IMG/VR virus record: IMGVR_UViG_3300016472_000923
DNA length: 64,000 nt
Origin: a virus
Direction: 5' to 3' (one strand)
The translations under genes and the position numbers were made by a program. Within the stretch, counting starts at the first letter, position 1. Each line of letters starts with the position of its first letter. Of the stretch, positions 14,759-30,148 are shown in pieces. The notes under the pieces were generated by a model, which saw nothing but the letters and a program-made list of their open reading frames with translations, ran no database searches and was not told the origin of the DNA.

Positions 14759-15448
14759 TTACGAGGTATAGTTCTCGACGATGGCCAACACATAGGTATC
14801 GTTGCCCTGTGTTCCAGAGATGATCTCTGTGCCTTCGTCTGTGAAGAAGTTCACCAGATACTTGTTGTTGGACCAGTCGATAGCATACTTGTTGGTCAGC
14901 TTCTTGATCAGGATGTCCGTGGAATCGCCATTGAAGATCGCGATGTTCATGTTGCCTTGTGTCAAAGCTGATGTGGCTTCATTAGCCAGTGTGCAAACAC
15001 CAACTTCAAACGCTGTACCTGTACCCGAACCTGCTGCACCAGCCACAAAGATGTCACCAGCAGCAGGGTTGGCTTTGGAAGCACCACAGGCTGTCCAGTT
15101 GGTTGTGCCTACTGTGTTGATGATGTAGGAACGACCAACCACTAGATCTTCGTCGTTGACCGATGTGGTATCAGCTACCAGATACTGGCGGCTGCCTTTT
15201 TGTGTGATGATGAAACCAGCGGCTTCAGCGGCACCAGGACCACCTGTGGGTAGATATACCTGAACACGCACCACTGGATAGGCTGCTGTGGCGATAGAAC
15301 CACCACCTAGGTTGTTGGCACCACCTACCACGCCGATGAACTGTGAAGTGTTCAGCGTGTCGGGATAGACTGGATTTGTGAGTTCACCGACATTGTTGAA
15401 ACCAATGTCTTTGGTTGTTGTTTTTTTAATCTTGAGAGGACGTCCCAT
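14759..15448 (-). CDS. Virion structural protein (possible head decoration)
   Basis: MGRPLK start, FIITQKGSRQYLV motif, strong AAGGAGAA RBS, own late promoter and terminator, close to the capsid gene. Confidence 0.6.
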   Translation of the reverse strand: MGRPLKIKKTTTKDIGFNNVGELTNPVYPDTLNTSQFIGVVGGANNLGGGSIATAAYPVVRVQVYLPTGGPGAAEAAGFIITQKGSRQYLVADTTSVNDEDLVVGRSYIINTVGTTNWTACGASKANPAAGDIFVAGAAGSGTGTAFEVGVCTLANEATSALTQGNMNIAIFNGDSTDILIKKLTNKYAIDWSNNKYLVNFFTDEGTEIISGTQGNDTYVLAIVENYTS

Positions 15449-15539
15449 TTGTTTTCTCCTTAAAGAAGTCCGATCGGGGTTCTAGCCCGTACGCGGTGGG
15501 GTTTAGGCGCCGCATAAAACGCAGGATCGCGTTGACAAG
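15449..15539 (-). promoter_or_regulatory. Structured 5' leader (three hairpins) after late promoter TAAATA (15545-15540)
   Basis: AACGC/GCGUU, UAUGCGG/CCGCGUA and CGGG/CCCG stems in series before the SD. Confidence 0.5.
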
Positions 15540-24795: not shown

Positions 24796-25638
24796 ATGTC
24801 AAACAATCCCAACCCACTGAGCCAATTTTTCCGGCAGCCGGCCATCTATATCCGCTTGCCCAGCGCAGGTCGCAACTGGCCCGCTGGGTCCATCGACATG
24901 CCTGCCAACGGTGAAATACCTGTTTATCCCATGACAGCCATGGACGAGATCACTTACCGCACCCCTGATGCCCTGTTCAACGGCGAGGCCGTGACTTCTG
25001 TGGTGCAGAGTTGTGTGCCCAACATCCGCGACGCATGGAGCATCCCGGCCTGCGATCTTGACACCCTGCTGGTTTCGATCCGCATAGCCAGTTACGGCAA
25101 TAGCATGGACATTGACACAACTTGTCCTGCTTGCCAATCTGAAAGCCAGTATGGACTAGATCTACGATCAGTGATTGACAAGATCCGAGCCGATGACTAC
25201 ACCAAACCGTTGACCGTGGGTGATCTAACCATCTACTTGCGACCGTTGAATTACAAAGAAGTCACAGCCAACAGCATCCTGCAGTTTGAACAACAAAAAA
25301 CCGTGCAAGTGCTGTCTGATGCCAACACCCCCGACGAAAACAAAGTGCAACAGATCAATCGCATGATGAGATCCATGATGGAGGCCACAGTCAATGTGCT
25401 TAGCCAAAGCATCAGAGAGATACGCACGCCCACAGCCGTGGTCCAAGAACCCAGCCAGATTCTGGAATTCATGCAAAAATGTGATCGTGCCATGTTCAAT
25501 CAGATACGAGATCGAGTGATACAGATGCGGCAAGTCAGCGAGATACAACCATTGAAGATGCGTTGTATGAGTTGCCAACATGAATACGAGCAAGCATTCA
25601 CCTTGGACAATGCTCGTTTTTTCGTATCAGACTCCTGA
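24796..25638 (+). CDS. Baseplate hub assembly / tail assembly chaperone (gp26-like)
   Basis: IRLPSAG, PMTAMDEI, DLDTLLVSIRIASYG, CPAC and CMSC pairs, C-terminal FF. Confidence 0.7.
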   Translation: MSNNPNPLSQFFRQPAIYIRLPSAGRNWPAGSIDMPANGEIPVYPMTAMDEITYRTPDALFNGEAVTSVVQSCVPNIRDAWSIPACDLDTLLVSIRIASYGNSMDIDTTCPACQSESQYGLDLRSVIDKIRADDYTKPLTVGDLTIYLRPLNYKEVTANSILQFEQQKTVQVLSDANTPDENKVQQINRMMRSMMEATVNVLSQSIREIRTPTAVVQEPSQILEFMQKCDRAMFNQIRDRVIQMRQVSEIQPLKMRCMSCQHEYEQAFTLDNARFFVSDS

Positions 25639-25658
25639 TTTCCAACGAGCAACAGATC

Positions 25659-25853
25659 GTGGCCATGGTAGATGGCATGGATCAGGAGTCAAAAGAAATT
25701 CGCCGTGAAGCATTGAAATTTGTTTGGTACATGCGTGGCGGTTTGACTTACACCGAAGCCATGAATCTCAGCCACGGAGAACGAGAAATCGTTTCCGGAA
25801 TCATCAAAGAAAATCTTGAGACCACGAAGAAAAGCGGATTGCCTTTCTTCTAA
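25659..25853 (+). CDS. Small gp51-position protein; probably the C-terminal part of a -1 frameshift product
   Basis: WYMRGGLTYTEAMNLS..ER; the frame is open from 25584, through the slippery site; no clear RBS. Confidence 0.7.
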   Translation: MAMVDGMDQESKEIRREALKFVWYMRGGLTYTEAMNLSHGEREIVSGIIKENLETTKKSGLPFF

Positions 25854-26299
25854 GAGACTTGCTGCGCAAGTCTGTTGATTTCGCTTTGCTCATCAACTAG
25901 TGTTAACTCTGAGCGAAGCGAAAGATTCGTCATCATCCAGATAAAGCGGTCACACTTAGCCCGTTGCCGGGCTAAGAAAAATGTGCATCATCCGAGTATC
26001 ACAGTCACACAGCGTTAGAGCTACGGAACCAACTTGTTCCACGCAGGCGGTTGTCCGGTACCTGCTCACTCCGTCTTATCACAACGGCAACACACAGACC
26101 GTACGCTATCACGATCCACATGCCTGAGGTTTTTCTCCTCTCTTTTTGCCTTTTATCCTTTTCCAACAACCAAATCACAGGCCTTACAAGTGATCATCAT
26201 CCCGGGGGGTAGTGGTTGAGTGCCCACGGGTGCGGTGGGTCTTCCGTCACTGTGAACCGTGGTTCCAGATCTAGGGCGCACGAGTTTGGCCTGCGCTAG
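25854..26299 (-). ncRNA. Putative large structured non-coding RNA of unknown family
   Basis: Longest non-coding gap in the window; about nine hand-identified stems, GNRA and YNMG tetraloops, and a G-U-rich helix that forms only on the minus strand. Confidence 0.65.
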
Positions 26300-26736
26300 C
26301 CTTGACTACCTAGTTTGCCTTTGATGTGTGAGCCATGTACTCGAACCTGTATGTGACCATTGTAGTATTCGTCTGATTCCAGTACCTTGCGGGCGAATTG
26401 TTCACGAGCCTCTATATAACTGCATTCAGCCTTGCTTCGGCAGTAATACAATATCTCGCGTGTGAAATTCTCTGTGCCTAACTGCTTGACTTCTTTGTTC
26501 AACTCGTCGTTGCTGCCGTAGTATTCTTGCCAATCGCTGTCGATCTTGCTGCGTATCTTTTTTTTCTTTTTGGTGCCGTTTTTGAGTTTGACTGTTCGAT
26601 ATGTTGTTTTGCGGAACTTGCTGAGTTTCTTGCCTATGTATTTCTTGCCTGATATCTTATTCGTGATGAGATACACGAAGCCCACATACTCTTCGGGTAT
26701 TTCGGTGATCTCTTGTGATTCGAACAGCCATGTCAT
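26296..26736 (-). CDS. Minimal GIY-YIG family endonuclease (Seg-like catalytic domain only)
   Basis: GFVYLITN...KKYIGKK, YYGS, FTREIL, conserved Glu helix SYIEAREQ, YYN. Confidence 0.8.
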   Translation of the reverse strand: MTWLFESQEITEIPEEYVGFVYLITNKISGKKYIGKKLSKFRKTTYRTVKLKNGTKKKKKIRSKIDSDWQEYYGSNDELNKEVKQLGTENFTREILYYCRSKAECSYIEAREQFARKVLESDEYYNGHIQVRVHGSHIKGKLGSQG

Positions 26737-26746
26737 TCATTGATAG

Positions 26747-28510
26747 TTATGCCAAATCTATGTCAGTATTATAAGAAGTAAATCCACCTTCTTTGACCAC
26801 ACGCAGGATGTTTTCCACCCGTCCAGCCAATTCGTCTCTGTGCGACACAAGCCAAATGCTCTTGTTGCGCTCGCGACTCATCTTCTTAAGTAACGCAAGA
26901 CTGTTTTCCACGCCTTGTGTGTCCATGCCCGAATCCACCAACTCGTCGATGAACAGCACATTGATCGGAGAATACAGACTTTCCCAAACATCTCGGAATG
27001 CCCACGACATTGACAGTATCAGTCTATTGCGTTCGCCGCGGCTGAGATTGTCAAAATCAAGATCTCGGCCCAGCTCTGTGATCTCTACTGTGAGATCATT
27101 TTGGAAGATGACCTGATGAGGTAGTCCGATCCTATCCAGATAGTGTGTGAGGCGGTTGTTGAGATAAGAAAGATTCTGCTCGATGATCTTCTTGCGGATG
27201 AAAGAATCTTTATTGGTCAATAGTTTCAACAAGAAATCTTGATGTTCTTGCAACCGAGTGAGTTCGTTCAAGGTGTCATAAGAAACGACCTGTAGAGCCT
27301 GAGATTGCATGTCTAAAATTTGCTCGCCATAGGGATCGATCTCAGCTGACCTGTTGGTGAGATCACGACGCAACCCGTCGAGGCTGTTACGATGATTCAA
27401 TGCTTGCTCGATGTCGTCATAGAACACTGTGGGCGCTGTGCCCAACTCACCGACACTGGCGATGGTGTCCAGATGCTCTTGACGCTGTGTGTCATTGGTC
27501 AGCATCTGTAGAGCTGCTTCCTGCAAGCTGTCTTGTTTGGCTTTTTTGATTTCGTCTTGTTTGTGATCATGCAGATCCTGGCCACAGGCATAGCACCGAT
27601 GATCGTCGAGGGCAGCGATCTCCCGTTTCAGCTTGTCCACGGTCTTCTGCAGTTTTTCGTCATCGGCGTCAATCTGCCGTATCCAGCGCCGGGCTTCGTC
27701 GATCTGCTTGCGGCGTTGATGGTATGTTTCCAGATCGCGATGTGCCTGTATCTCTGCTTCGATGTTGATATTGGCCAGACCTGCGATGGCAGTTTCCAAC
27801 TGATCGCAGTCTTCGGTCTGTTTTTTCAACCATAGAGTCTGGCGTTTTTTTAGACTTTCGATCTGCTCTTCGATTCTTTTATTCGCTTCTTGCACCGCGC
27901 GGATGCGCATTTCTTCCTGACCAATGGCATCTTTGGTTTCTCGGTTTATTTCTTTGACTCGCTCTGCTCGTTCGCTCAGCAAGGTGATGCCCAGCAGTTG
28001 CTCGATCATCAATCGTTGGTCGTTGGCCTTCATGGCCAAAAACGGCTCGGTATAAGTGTTCAAAGCCAATACATGCTTGAACATGTCGTGTGTCATGCCC
28101 AAGGCCGACTCTATTGCGTCTTGCGTTTCGCGGCTATCGCCCTGGCTGTCATCTTCGGCAGCTTGTTCTTGATTGTTGACATAGAATTTAAGCACATTGG
28201 GCTTTCTACCCCGTTCTATTCTGTAATCGCGTCCGTTGATAGAGAACTCTAAGCTGACCAACATGGCTTTGCCATTGGTCTTGTTGACTAGGTTGTCACG
28301 GCGGATGTTGGTTAGAGCTTGGCCATACAAGGCATAGGAAAGAGCGTTGATGATGGTGGTCTTGCCTGTGCCGTTCCTTGAACCATCGCCGCCGAGATCT
28401 AGATTTTCTCCCAGGACCAAAGTGAGGTCCTTGCGATCAAAATTAATGGCCTGTGTGGCATTGCCCACCGACATGAAGTTTTTGACTGTGAGATCTTTGA
28501 TTTGTATCAT
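26747..28510 (-). CDS. gp46: Recombination endonuclease ATPase subunit (gp46, Rad50/SbcC-like)
   Basis: KNFMSVGN, Walker A NGTGKTT, CYAC zinc hook, signature LSRGE, Walker B LFIDE, VSH. Confidence 0.95.
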   Translation of the reverse strand: MIQIKDLTVKNFMSVGNATQAINFDRKDLTLVLGENLDLGGDGSRNGTGKTTIINALSYALYGQALTNIRRDNLVNKTNGKAMLVSLEFSINGRDYRIERGRKPNVLKFYVNNQEQAAEDDSQGDSRETQDAIESALGMTHDMFKHVLALNTYTEPFLAMKANDQRLMIEQLLGITLLSERAERVKEINRETKDAIGQEEMRIRAVQEANKRIEEQIESLKKRQTLWLKKQTEDCDQLETAIAGLANINIEAEIQAHRDLETYHQRRKQIDEARRWIRQIDADDEKLQKTVDKLKREIAALDDHRCYACGQDLHDHKQDEIKKAKQDSLQEAALQMLTNDTQRQEHLDTIASVGELGTAPTVFYDDIEQALNHRNSLDGLRRDLTNRSAEIDPYGEQILDMQSQALQVVSYDTLNELTRLQEHQDFLLKLLTNKDSFIRKKIIEQNLSYLNNRLTHYLDRIGLPHQVIFQNDLTVEITELGRDLDFDNLSRGERNRLILSMSWAFRDVWESLYSPINVLFIDELVDSGMDTQGVENSLALLKKMSRERNKSIWLVSHRDELAGRVENILRVVKEGGFTSYNTDIDLA

Positions 28511-28639: not shown

Positions 28640-30148
28640 TCATGCTACGATTTTGCAATCTTGGTACCTGGCAAGTTCTGGGACATAATCTACCAGATGC
28701 ACACCACGAGAATGATCTAGTCGAACATTGAATTGGAAAAATTCAGATAGATCCTGCGGAATATATCGGGTCTGGAAATAGTTTAGATATCCATCGATGC
28801 TGCTGGCAAACAAAGGATCATTGTGATAACAATCTGTTTGTTGTACTTGCAGCAATGATTCTATCGCCAAGTCTTGGTCAGGAAAAAGATATGGCGAGAA
28901 ATTTTCCGCCATGTTACAATGCACCAATGTGTTTGAAAAATTCTTATCTATAAACTGATACAAGTGGTGCAAATGCGCTATGTTGTAGATACTAACCGTG
29001 GTATTGACATGTACCTTGTGACCGCGAGAGCGCAGTATCTTCCAGTTGTCGATGATATCTTGCCAGGCACTGGGCCATCTGATATAATGATTGAGACGAT
29101 CATACCCGTCAATACTGAACACGAAGTGCAAATTTTGGAAGTGTGGCAATAAAGACAACAGTTTTCCGTTAAAATTTGTACCATTGGTGTTGACCAATAT
29201 TTCGATATGGGTCTTGTTTTGTTCTATACACTGCTGCAAAAATGCATAGAATTCTTTCATCACCGTGGGTTCACCACCTGCTACATAGACCTTGAACGCG
29301 TGGTCTAAATCCACGATGTCAAAACCGGTTTTGTGTTTTTGTCTTGTAATCCGGGTCTTGGGAATTATGCCGATCTGACGGTATTCTCTTTCGATGAGAT
29401 GGCTGTTTTCTGCATTGCAAGTCCGGCATTGCAAATTACATTTGTTACTGGCTCGCACTTCATAGTAGGCTGGTTTTTCTAGCTTGGCAAGATCGTCGAG
29501 ATCGTTTATACCCAGACGATGGGCCCATTCCACTGTTTCCTGCTGTCTTGCACTAATGATACCTTGGCTTTCTAACCTATAGCAGGCCGAACAATGTTCT
29601 GGTATCATCTCGCCTGCTAACATTTTCTCTCGTATGACCTGATATCCGGGATCGTTACGGAAATCTTTGAAGTCCTGTAGTTTGGTCACGGGCTGCAAGG
29701 ATCTACAACACACAGTGGTATGATCGTAGTTGACTAACAGTTCGACAAAAGGAAAAATACAGAAGCTCTTGTTCGATTCTACCAAAGCCGAGAAAAAAAC
29801 AAAGGTCTGTCGCATGGCCTCATCGATGAAACGCACCGGAGCAACAGTCCTGGTCACGGCCTGTATTGTGCGAAAAAATCCATCAGGATGGCTCCATTGT
29901 TCCATGGGTTGATCTAGAACAACAACCTCGTCAAACTCATCCATCAGTCGTACCAGTCTACCAAATTCCATGTCATAGATGCTGCTGTGATAATATCCGG
30001 GCACAGCATAGGATGATTGAACTGCCGGCTGTTCTAATTCAGAAATAAGACCATGGCACACTGAGCCCTCGTGTCTGCTCAAAAGCCTTGTGCGAATATC
30101 TGTATCTTCGGTATTATTCCCCAAGCACAGTATTTTTTTTGACATCAT
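28640..30148 (-). CDS. Radical SAM protein with twitch/SPASM-like Cys cluster and unknown N-terminal domain
   Basis: CNLQCRTC (CxxxCxxC), GGEP, TNGT, SIDG..YIR; FCIFPF...CC...CSAC upstream. Confidence 0.9.
   Translation of the reverse strand: MMSKKILCLGNNTEDTDIRTRLLSRHEGSVCHGLISELEQPAVQSSYAVPGYYHSSIYDMEFGRLVRLMDEFDEVVVLDQPMEQWSHPDGFFRTIQAVTRTVAPVRFIDEAMRQTFVFFSALVESNKSFCIFPFVELLVNYDHTTVCCRSLQPVTKLQDFKDFRNDPGYQVIREKMLAGEMIPEHCSACYRLESQGIISARQQETVEWAHRLGINDLDDLAKLEKPAYYEVRASNKCNLQCRTCNAENSHLIEREYRQIGIIPKTRITRQKHKTGFDIVDLDHAFKVYVAGGEPTVMKEFYAFLQQCIEQNKTHIEILVNTNGTNFNGKLLSLLPHFQNLHFVFSIDGYDRLNHYIRWPSAWQDIIDNWKILRSRGHKVHVNTTVSIYNIAHLHHLYQFIDKNFSNTLVHCNMAENFSPYLFPDQDLAIESLLQVQQTDCYHNDPLFASSIDGYLNYFQTRYIPQDLSEFFQFNVRLDHSRGVHLVDYVPELARYQDCKIVA

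What the first reader, a model, noticed from the sequence alone, without database searches (positions are those of the whole stretch)
25854..26749. Minimal GIY-YIG nuclease followed by a ~440-nt structured RNA: candidate nuclease-ncRNA system
Seen: the 146-aa GIY-YIG ORF is a catalytic domain with a basic insertion (KTTYRTVKLKNGTKKKKKIRSK) and no C-terminal DNA-binding domain. From its UAG stop onward the same strand folds into a series of stems. These are CUAG-CGCA/UGCG-CUAG (26299-26271), GAAC-CACG-GUUC, CCCAC/GUGGG, a CAACCA/UGGUUG multiloop, GAGG/CCUC, GCAGG/CCUGC, GGAAC/GUUCC and a 9-bp GCAA-capped stem. There is also a 13-bp GCAUGUGGAUCGU/ACGGUCUGUGUGU helix with six G-U pairs, which would be A-C mismatches on the plus strand and so indicate the minus strand. 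Two long-range pairings are possible: loop AUAGCGU with ACGCUGU, and CGCAGGCC with GGCCUGUG. A TAACTA late-promoter variant (26749-26744) overlaps the gp46 stop. Known: Seg and I-TevI enzymes get specificity from appended DNA-binding domains, while IscB and TnpB use an adjacent ncRNA. Inference: protein and RNA may form an RNP, possibly RNA-guided, or the RNA may be an independent ribozyme or scaffold. I do not recognise it as a group I/II intron, RNase P or tmRNA.
Basis: partly seen in the sequence, partly recalled or inferred. Interest (0 to 1): 0.88.

Follow-up and report, generated by a model that had tools for sequence, protein, structure and literature searches.

The report
Twin-box phage RNA behind nuclease gene
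The gene-free 440 bases behind a small nuclease gene of this uncultured giant T4-like phage encode a real, multiply knotted non-coding RNA; its first third is the catalogued but unexplained Polynucleobacter-1 motif, the nuclease looks like a neighbour and not a partner, and the RNA carries one short sequence twice that always changes in step.

Summary
Window 26311-25855 (minus strand) is a conserved RNA of about 455 nt. On 50 relatives, 76 base pairs in 16 helices, three of them pseudoknots, are 93% paired (32-42% in slid controls), and 58 pairs show compensatory changes. G-U excess over A-C fixes the strand.

It is not unknown. Bases 26301-26164 match Rfam RF01718 (Polynucleobacter-1, 108 bits). 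Weinberg 2010 already noted its position behind a gene like P-SSM2 PSSM2_218, which I show belongs to this GIY-YIG family.

The nuclease-RNA partnership is not supported. Hundreds of phages carry the protein, and five I checked have no such RNA or no room for it. The RNA family also occurs behind a PD-(D/E)XK nuclease or a methyltransferase in the same locus. It also occurs on integrase islands with no GIY-YIG gene. No protein column tracks the RNA.

New here:
- a variant with a different 5' half;
- an invariant knotted core (GGUACCGGACAACCGCC);
- two 7-8-nt boxes flanking a hairpin that stay identical through at least 40 inferred changes, with no complementary partner in the RNA.

Function remains unknown. 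Best reading: an autonomous RNA gene of mobile elements. This scan has reported the same RNA family on other genomes (236 notes, at least 147 genomes).

The parts
26296..26736 (-). 146-aa stand-alone GIY-YIG nuclease gene (SegE_GIY-YIG, phrog_447, PSSM2_218 family). It is the upstream neighbour of the RNA. Its last four codons overlap the 5' strand of pseudoknot 1.
   Evidence: Pfam E 1.9e-32; PHROG 447 E 4e-37; invariant Y22, Y33, R93, E109, N126 in alignment A2; P-SSM2 homologue is PSSM2_218.
25855..26311 (-). Full-length structured non-coding RNA, about 455 nt, type A of the extended Polynucleobacter-1 family.
   Evidence: nhmmer finds it in 72 of 80 GIY-selected IMG/VR loci and in about 115 of 119 loci selected by a 17-mer. 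76 pairs are 93.3% paired against 76.1% in shuffles and 32-42% in slid controls.
26164..26301 (-). 5' domain, Rfam RF01718 Polynucleobacter-1 RNA.
   Evidence: cmscan 108.3 bits (gathering score 37), E 6e-24, model positions 1-141 of 141.
26229..26309 (-). Pseudoknot 1: 26309-26307 pairs with the hairpin loop 26231-26229. It lies outside the Rfam model.
   Evidence: Profile columns 4/83: GC 36, AU 30, GU 12, UA 11, 99% paired. Helix 1 has 3 of 3 pairs with compensatory changes.
26091..26121 (-). Long G-U-rich hairpin. Its loop UAGCG (26108-26104) forms pseudoknot 2 with 26014-26010.
   Evidence: 11 of 11 stem pairs and 5 of 5 pseudoknot pairs show compensatory changes (helices 9 and 10).
26045..26085 (-). 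Knotted core. GUUGU (26085-26081) pairs with ACAAC (26054-26050) inside the nearly invariant GGUACCGGACAACCGCC (26062-26046). This is closed by helices 26071-26068 with 26021-26018 and 26063-26060 with 26048-26045.
   Evidence: Invariant columns in A1 and A3. Columns 232/262 UA 109, CG 13; columns 244/280 GC 72, CG 35, UA 7, AU 7. Helices 11-13.
25986..25996 (-). Box 1 (CUCGGAUGAUG).
   Evidence: Mirrored with box 2: variable positions are identical in 122/122, 122/122 and 121/122 unique sequences.
25955..25976 (-). Hairpin between the boxes (CUUAGCCCG-GCAA-CGGGCUAAG).
   Evidence: 8 pairs, 94% paired (helix 14). Replaced by a different hairpin (UUCACCG/CGGUGAA) in type B.
25931..25941 (-). 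Box 2 (UCUGGAUGAUG).
   Evidence: As for box 1. Parsimony needs at least 22, 7 and 13 changes at the three variable positions, and singleton changes are mirrored too.
25855..25920 (-). Tail: a GCGAAAGC-type mini-hairpin region, then a terminal hairpin (25873-25855) that abuts the stop of the convergent 64-aa gene. Probably a two-way terminator.
   Evidence: Helices 15-16 have 8 of 8 compensatory pairs. A terminator-like site on the + strand lies at 25855-25873. Columns 407/414 and 408/413 covary.

Best explanation
The gap is a gene for a large, multiply pseudoknotted non-coding RNA. It is a full-length member of the orphan Polynucleobacter-1 family, of which Rfam models only the first 141 nt.

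In this giant T4-like freshwater phage the RNA is read from the minus strand, at the 3' end of the gp46/GIY-YIG operon. It starts in the last codons of the nuclease gene and ends at a hairpin shared with the convergent baseplate genes.

It is an autonomous RNA gene of mobile elements: giant phages, integrase-bearing islands, and perhaps other phages whose homology is not shown. The GIY-YIG gene merely occupies the variable slot upstream. That slot also accepts a PD-(D/E)XK nuclease, a methyltransferase-like gene or radical-SAM genes, as expected for free-standing homing-type cassettes landing beside a conserved gene.

The working parts are an invariant knotted core and two identical single-stranded 7-8-nt boxes on either side of a hairpin. 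I infer that one sequence-reading partner reads both boxes. That partner could be a nucleic acid in trans or two equivalent sites of one complex.

Shown: the existence, strand, extent and fold of the RNA; its independence from the nuclease; the mirrored boxes. Inferred: co-transcription, release as a stable RNA, and the common reader.
For: Rfam hit at 108 bits. Conservation across the whole 440 nt in about 190 IMG/VR loci, while the flanking baseplate protein is only 30-60% identical.

Covariation: 93.3% of cells paired, 58 of 76 pairs compensatory, score 0.468 against 0.06-0.10 for slid controls, 0 of 500 shuffles as high. G-U 8.5% against A-C 1.3%. No conserved ORF.

Independence from GIY-YIG:
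- cultured phages with the protein lack the RNA;
- L400 and L381 keep the RNA behind a PD-(D/E)XK gene;
- L015-type loci have a 268-aa methyltransferase-like gene between the two;
- type C, 62 loci, 10 of 10 tested with RF01718, lies on integrase islands with a divergent DUF6641 gene;
- only 5 of 81 AGCGAAA-box loci have GIY-YIG upstream;
- no protein column tracks the boxes.

Mirrored boxes. Weinberg 2010 supplement (PMC2864571).
Against: Transcription, processing and RNA ends are therefore inferred.

Within the type A/B clade the RNA follows GIY-YIG in nearly every locus. Three unrelated nucleases (GIY-YIG, PD-(D/E)XK, UvdE) are found directly upstream in different lineages, so a looser link to nucleases is not excluded.

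No reader of the boxes was found in cis, in the fetched loci or in the 64-kb window.

Homology of the type E loci (UvdE and ligase context) rests only on the box module and a resemblance of the core seen by eye. My core model does not detect them.
Confidence: 0.6

Rival explanations
1. Nuclease-RNA ribonucleoprotein. The GIY-YIG protein lacks a DNA-binding domain and uses the adjacent RNA as guide, scaffold or regulator.
For: Strict adjacency in nearly all type A, B and D loci. The protein is a bare catalytic domain. The RNA begins inside the last codons of the ORF. Other nucleases (PD-(D/E)XK, UvdE) sit upstream in other lineages.
Against: The protein family is far wider than the RNA. The RNA occurs without the protein. 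A methyltransferase-like gene can separate them. There is no co-evolution between protein columns and boxes: normalised MI 0.23-0.45 against controls 0.16-0.31. The variable boxes come in two identical copies, unlike a guide matched to one target.
Confidence: 0.08
2. Self-processing ribozyme. The knotted body cuts, or cuts and rejoins, at both boxes and releases the 52-nt box-hairpin unit. The two sites must be identical because one active site reads both.
For: Mirrored boxes with at least 40 inferred co-changes and mirrored singletons. An invariant pseudoknotted core typical of catalytic or ligand-binding RNAs. The boxes remain mirrored across subtypes that have different box sequences.
Against: No internal guide covaries with the boxes. 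No Rfam ribozyme family matches. No read-end data are available.
Confidence: 0.1
3. Purely cis-acting 3' element: an mRNA stabiliser, exonuclease block or insulator at the point where early and late transcription converge.
For: Position at the operon end facing convergent late genes. A terminal hairpin that serves the + strand as a terminator.
Against: Sixteen covarying helices, three pseudoknots and invariant single-stranded bases are far more than such a role needs. Type C has a divergent upstream gene and a same-strand downstream gene, so it is not convergent. One type E locus starts after a terminator.
Confidence: 0.1
4. Replication-origin transcript (R-loop primer). This was proposed in earlier notes of this scan for sister loci.
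For: T4 uses R-loop origins (established knowledge). The tail holds GCGAAAGC-type mini-hairpins. Neighbours are recombination and repair genes.
Against: Compensatory changes preserve RNA-RNA helices, not an RNA-DNA hybrid. There is no GC-skew feature here. The claimed look-alikes in cultured giant phages were not found in PA5oct, PBECO4 or 121Q with my model, profiles or twin-box scan.
Confidence: 0.06

Closest known systems
Polynucleobacter-1 RNA motif (Rfam RF01718; Weinberg et al. 2010, PMC2864571)
   Same: Bases 26301-26164 match the whole model at 108 bits. The position behind a PSSM2_218-like gene is the same. The 2010 raw alignment already holds a 'tail' with extra helices and a 7-bp pseudoknot for sequences of this type.
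   Different: Rfam models 141 nt; the RNA here is about 455 nt. In 2010 it was not found in any phage genome, whereas here it lies in T4-like giant-phage contigs. The upstream gene was not then recognised as a GIY-YIG nuclease. The mirrored boxes, the second core pseudoknot, pseudoknot 1 and a variant with another 5' half are not in the Rfam model, the Weinberg 2010 text and alignment parts I read, or my two literature searches.
GOLLD and ROOL large RNAs of phages and prophages
   Same: Large, ornate RNAs of unknown function, supported by covariation and carried by phages and other mobile elements (general knowledge; bioRxiv 10.1101/2024.12.08.627333 was listed but not read).
   Different: No sequence or model match. 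This RNA is smaller. Twin identical boxes are not a known feature of those RNAs.
OMEGA systems (IscB or TnpB with omega RNA)
   Same: A nuclease gene next to a large structured RNA on a mobile element.
   Different: The nuclease fold differs (GIY-YIG, not RuvC/HNH). The RNA occurs without the nuclease and the nuclease without the RNA. No guide segment at an element end was seen (not searched for specifically).
T4 Seg-type free-standing GIY-YIG homing endonucleases (SegE)
   Same: The Pfam SegE_GIY-YIG domain covers the whole protein. The gene sits in a variable slot between conserved genes and is found at different loci in different phages.
   Different: 146 aa with no C-terminal DNA-binding domain. 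Nearly fixed in this clade, and more conserved (67-85%) than the flanking baseplate genes.

Membership tests
Rfam RF01718 Polynucleobacter-1 RNA | Covariance-model score above the curated gathering score over the full model | tested here: met
   108.3 bits against 37, model 1-141 of 141, E 6e-24.
Rfam RF01718 Polynucleobacter-1 RNA | Consensus helices kept through compensatory changes | tested here: met
   Helices 2, 5, 6 and 7 are 96-100% paired and 17 of their 22 pairs are compensatory. The P2 hairpin is weaker (helices 3-4, 83% and 35% paired).
Rfam RF01718 Polynucleobacter-1 RNA | Location downstream of a GOS11034 / PSSM2_218-like gene (Weinberg 2010 supplement) | tested here: met
   The window's GIY-YIG protein has a single homologue in P-SSM2, PSSM2_218 (E 1.8e-16).
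GIY-YIG nuclease superfamily (Pfam PF19835 SegE_GIY-YIG) | Profile match above cut-off, plus conserved GIY and YIG tyrosines, Arg, Glu and Asn | tested here: met
   112.5 bits against 25. Y22, Y33, R93, E109 and N126 are invariant in A2. Their catalytic roles are inferred by analogy, not assayed.
Seg / I-TevI-type homing endonucleases | Appended C-terminal DNA-binding domain | tested here: not met
   The protein is 146 aa and the catalytic-domain profile covers residues 3-129.
RNA-guided nuclease systems (IscB/TnpB-omega RNA type) | Obligate co-occurrence of the nuclease and its RNA | tested here: not met
   The RNA occurs without GIY-YIG and GIY-YIG without the RNA.
Group I / group II introns, RNase P, tmRNA, known ribozymes | Match to the family covariance model | tested here: not met
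   cmscan of 25000-27500 at E up to 10 gave only RF01718. ARAGORN found no tRNA or tmRNA.

The most novel reading that the evidence does not exclude
The two always-identical boxes are the business end of a new kind of RNA device. One possibility is twin processing or ligation sites of a ribozyme that releases a 52-nt hairpin RNA. Another is two copies of an 'address' read by base pairing by one trans-acting nucleic acid. A third is a parallel-stranded homo-base-paired duplex, the one direct box-to-box contact I can see that would demand identity position by position. Any of these would be a mechanism without a described precedent in phage RNAs.
Probability: 0.15. Interest if true: 0.85.

Novelty: new member of a known kind. 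Interest (0 to 1): 0.55.

Why it matters
Polynucleobacter-1 has been an orphan Rfam entry since 2010, modelled only in part, and my literature search found no paper on it other than the 2010 one.

This locus and its relatives show three things. The real unit is a multi-pseudoknot RNA of about 450 nt, carried by uncultured giant T4-like phages and by integrative islands. It is independent of the neighbouring nuclease. It contains a pair of boxes whose identity is maintained through dozens of changes.

That last signature is not ordinary base-pair covariation, and it gives a sharp experimental handle: change one box, then change both. If a reader of the boxes or a processing reaction is found, it would explain a widespread RNA of mobile elements in freshwater and marine samples.

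Tried and rejected
- Cultured hosts of the RNA: blastn of types A, D and E against 50,697 phage records gave nothing. In Melnitz, phiN3, S-SRM01 and ACP17, Rfam found no RF01718 beside the homologous gene.
- A lead from earlier notes, look-alikes in cultured giant phages, was not reproduced. PA5oct: locus scan, profile and model R1. PBECO4 and 121Q: model R1. Whole PBECO4: twin-box regex and two nhmmer profiles.
- Bacterial genomes: the 17-mer gave 71 hits, about the number expected by chance. Only 2 were real, both on phage-like contigs in MAG bins.
- A partner for the boxes was not found. No covarying column exists. No consistent reverse-complement 7-mer occurs in the loci. The only segment able to pair with every variant is the G/U-rich columns 141-148, and such pairing would not force identity. 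GGATGATG in the window occurs at the chance rate and never as a complement on the RNA strand.
- Antiparallel box1:box2 pairing, worked out by hand, does not explain the identity.
- CsrA-type GGA sites, C/D boxes and coding readings are rejected, because half the sequences have AGAU in place of GGAU and indels are not multiples of three.
- Protein structure relatives: no PDB sequence or profile hit.
- Core model R1 does not reach type E, and Rfam does not either.
- GC skew shows nothing at the locus.
Full report
**What is there.** The window carries T4-like genes around the finding. A Rad50-like gp46 lies at 26747-28510(-). A 146-aa ORF lies at 26296-26736(-). Then comes a 442-nt gap. Facing it are a 64-aa ORF at 25659-25853(+) and a T4 baseplate-family gene at 24796-25638(+). 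The 146-aa protein matches Pfam SegE_GIY-YIG over the whole profile (E 1.9e-32) and PHROG 447 (E 4e-37), a family often mislabelled 'NAD synthetase'. The nearest cultured relative of gp46 is the Pseudomonas giant phage PA5oct at 49% identity. Related IMG/VR contigs reach 345 kb, so this is an uncultured giant T4-like phage lineage.

**The RNA is partly known.** cmscan places Rfam RF01718 (Polynucleobacter-1 RNA) at 26301-26164(-) with 108.3 bits (gathering score 37) over the complete model. No other family matches the gap, even at E up to 10. The supplement of Weinberg et al. [quoted passage not shown] I searched the P-SSM2 record with the window's protein. Its only homologue is PSSM2_218 (E 1.8e-16, 42% identity). 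The 2010 raw alignment also holds a 'tail' subfamily, with further helices and a 7-bp pseudoknot beyond the part Rfam models.

**The RNA is much larger than the Rfam entry, and it is real.** A protein-based search of IMG/VR gave 80 loci with a GIY-YIG protein 67-85% identical. nhmmer with the window's gap found the whole of about 440 nt conserved directly behind the gene in 72 of them. In the same loci the baseplate protein is only 30-60% identical. A scan that ignored the protein, using the invariant 17-mer GGTACCGGACAACCGCC, gave at least 119 further stretches. About 115 of them hold the full RNA in the same locus.

On a 50-sequence alignment (A1) I tested a structure of 76 pairs in 16 helices, three of them pseudoknots. 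93.3% of cells are paired, against 76.1% in shuffles (0 of 500 as high) and 32-42% when partners are slid by 1-3 columns. 58 pairs have changes on both sides. The covariation score is 0.468 against 0.06-0.10 for the slid controls. G-U pairs (8.5%) far outnumber A-C (1.3%), which fixes the minus strand. Lengths of 122 unique homologues (423-542 nt, median 453) fall evenly over the three classes mod 3, and no ORF is conserved. The second proposed long-range pairing involves invariant bases and cannot be judged.

**Anatomy in window coordinates.**
- Pseudoknot 1 pairs 26309-26307, inside the last codons of the nuclease gene, with 26231-26229.
- The Rfam domain runs from 26301 to 26164.
- An A-rich linker follows.
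- A small hairpin pairs 26138-26135 with 26130-26127.
- A long hairpin spans 26121-26091. Its loop (26108-26104) pairs with 26014-26010 to form pseudoknot 2.
- In the knotted core, GUUGU (26085-26081) pairs with ACAAC (26054-26050) inside the near-invariant GGUACCGGACAACCGCC.
- Box 1 lies at 25996-25986, a GCAA-capped hairpin at 25976-25955, and box 2 at 25941-25931.
- The tail ends in a hairpin (25873-25855) that also scores as a + strand terminator for the convergent genes.

**The mirrored boxes.** A mutual-information scan of 122 unique sequences gave ordinary Watson-Crick covariation for the helices. It also gave three top-ranked column pairs that are never complementary and always identical. 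These are profile columns 305/357 (GG 64, AA 58), 309/361 (GG 66, AA 56) and 311/363 (UU 82, AA 32, GG 7, one exception). They lie 52 nt apart in CUC-RGAURAN and UCU-RGAURAN.

On a tree built from the other columns, parsimony needs at least 22, 7 and 13 changes at these positions. Two singleton substitutions (GAAUGAU and GCAUAAU) are also present in both boxes. The pattern holds in other subtypes with other box sequences:
- CAGAUCAAG / UAGAUCAAG in type B;
- AGCGAAA in types C, D and E, including the Polynucleobacter genome copy in the 2010 alignment.
There, the base after the box is identical in 52 of 75 distinct sequences, against 25.8 expected.

I found no partner. No column covaries with the boxes. 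No consistent complementary 7-mer occurs in the fetched loci or in the 64-kb window. Only a G/U-rich segment could pair with every variant, and that would not force identity. This remains unexplained.

**Is the nuclease a partner?** The evidence says neighbour.
(i) The protein family occurs in more than 500 cultured phage records. Four checked loci (Melnitz, phiN3, S-SRM01, ACP17) have no RF01718, and in P-SSM2 the next gene abuts.
(ii) Within the same T4-like locus a 268-aa methyltransferase-like gene can sit between nuclease and RNA (L015 and others). In L400 and L381 the GIY-YIG gene is absent, and the RNA follows a PD-(D/E)XK endonuclease gene (PF24608, E 2.6e-26) after a radical-SAM/SPASM gene.
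(iii) A metagenome scan for the AGCGAAA twin-box module gave at least 120 stretches. Of 81 with enough upstream sequence, only 5 have GIY-YIG upstream.
(iv) The largest cluster (62 loci, type C) carries the RF01718 domain in 10 of 10 tested. It lies between a divergent DUF6641 gene and a small tyrosine recombinase, with a second integrase nearby. That is an integrative island, as in the Polynucleobacter chromosome.
(v) A further cluster (type E) lies behind a UvdE gene or an unknown gene, near DNA and RNA ligase genes. Its homology rests on the box module only, since neither Rfam nor my core model detects it.
(vi) No column of the GIY-YIG alignment tracks the box states.

The upstream slot thus looks like a landing site for free-standing cassettes beside a conserved RNA gene. 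The recurrence of nucleases there is compatible with homing-type genes, but I did not test homing.

**Modularity.** Eleven loci (type B) keep the core and twin-box module behind the same nuclease gene, but they replace the Rfam domain with a different, mutually conserved 5' half of about 240 nt. Type D has yet another 5' region. The core plus twin boxes is the constant part; the catalogued 5' domain is not.

**Verdict.** The ribonucleoprotein reading is not supported. The remaining value lies in the full architecture and the mirrored boxes.

Earlier notes of this scan describe the same family on many other genomes. I reached the twin-box and island findings from my own data. I could not reproduce their claim of relatives in cultured giant phages. 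Their replication-primer idea has no support here.

Noticed in passing
window 15446-15534 (-): A second orphan Rfam motif, freshwater-2 RNA (RF02980), at 66.7 bits against a gathering score of 49.9.
   Followed up: no
L011, L012, L034, L036, L042, L047, L056, L058, L069, L075, L083 (about 190-240 nt after the GIY-YIG stop): Type B RNAs. The Rfam 5' domain is replaced by a different 5' half, conserved among these loci, while the core and twin boxes are kept.
   Followed up: partly
L358:2341-5765, L293:3093-5775 and about 60 similar metagenome loci: Type C RNAs lie on integrative islands. A DUF6641 gene is divergent upstream, a 197-aa tyrosine recombinase lies 0.6-2 kb downstream, and a second integrase lies beyond it.
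   Followed up: partly
L400:1325-1846 (+): A phage PD-(D/E)XK endonuclease gene (PF24608) takes the place of the GIY-YIG gene directly upstream of the RNA in an otherwise syntenic T4-like locus.
   Followed up: partly
L015:3432-4238 (+), and about 800-nt insertions in L005, L069, L091, L096, L120, L122, L146, L162: Only in L015 was the insertion between the nuclease gene and the RNA examined; there it is a 268-aa methyltransferase-like ORF with a weak Pfam match. The other insertions are of similar size and were not examined.
   Followed up: partly
NC_006883.2:176711-177148 and many records: Members of this GIY-YIG family (phrog_447, PSSM2_218) are widely annotated as 'NAD synthetase', which looks like a propagated annotation error.
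   Followed up: partly
window 24796-25853 (+): A first-stage note proposes a -1 frameshift joining the baseplate-family gene to the 64-aa ORF. The two ORFs are adjacent in nearly all relatives. I did not test the frameshift.
   Followed up: no
window 28640-30148 (-): A 502-aa radical-SAM protein gene lies upstream of gp46. Radical-SAM genes recur in the variable slot between gp46 and the nuclease gene in relatives.
   Followed up: no
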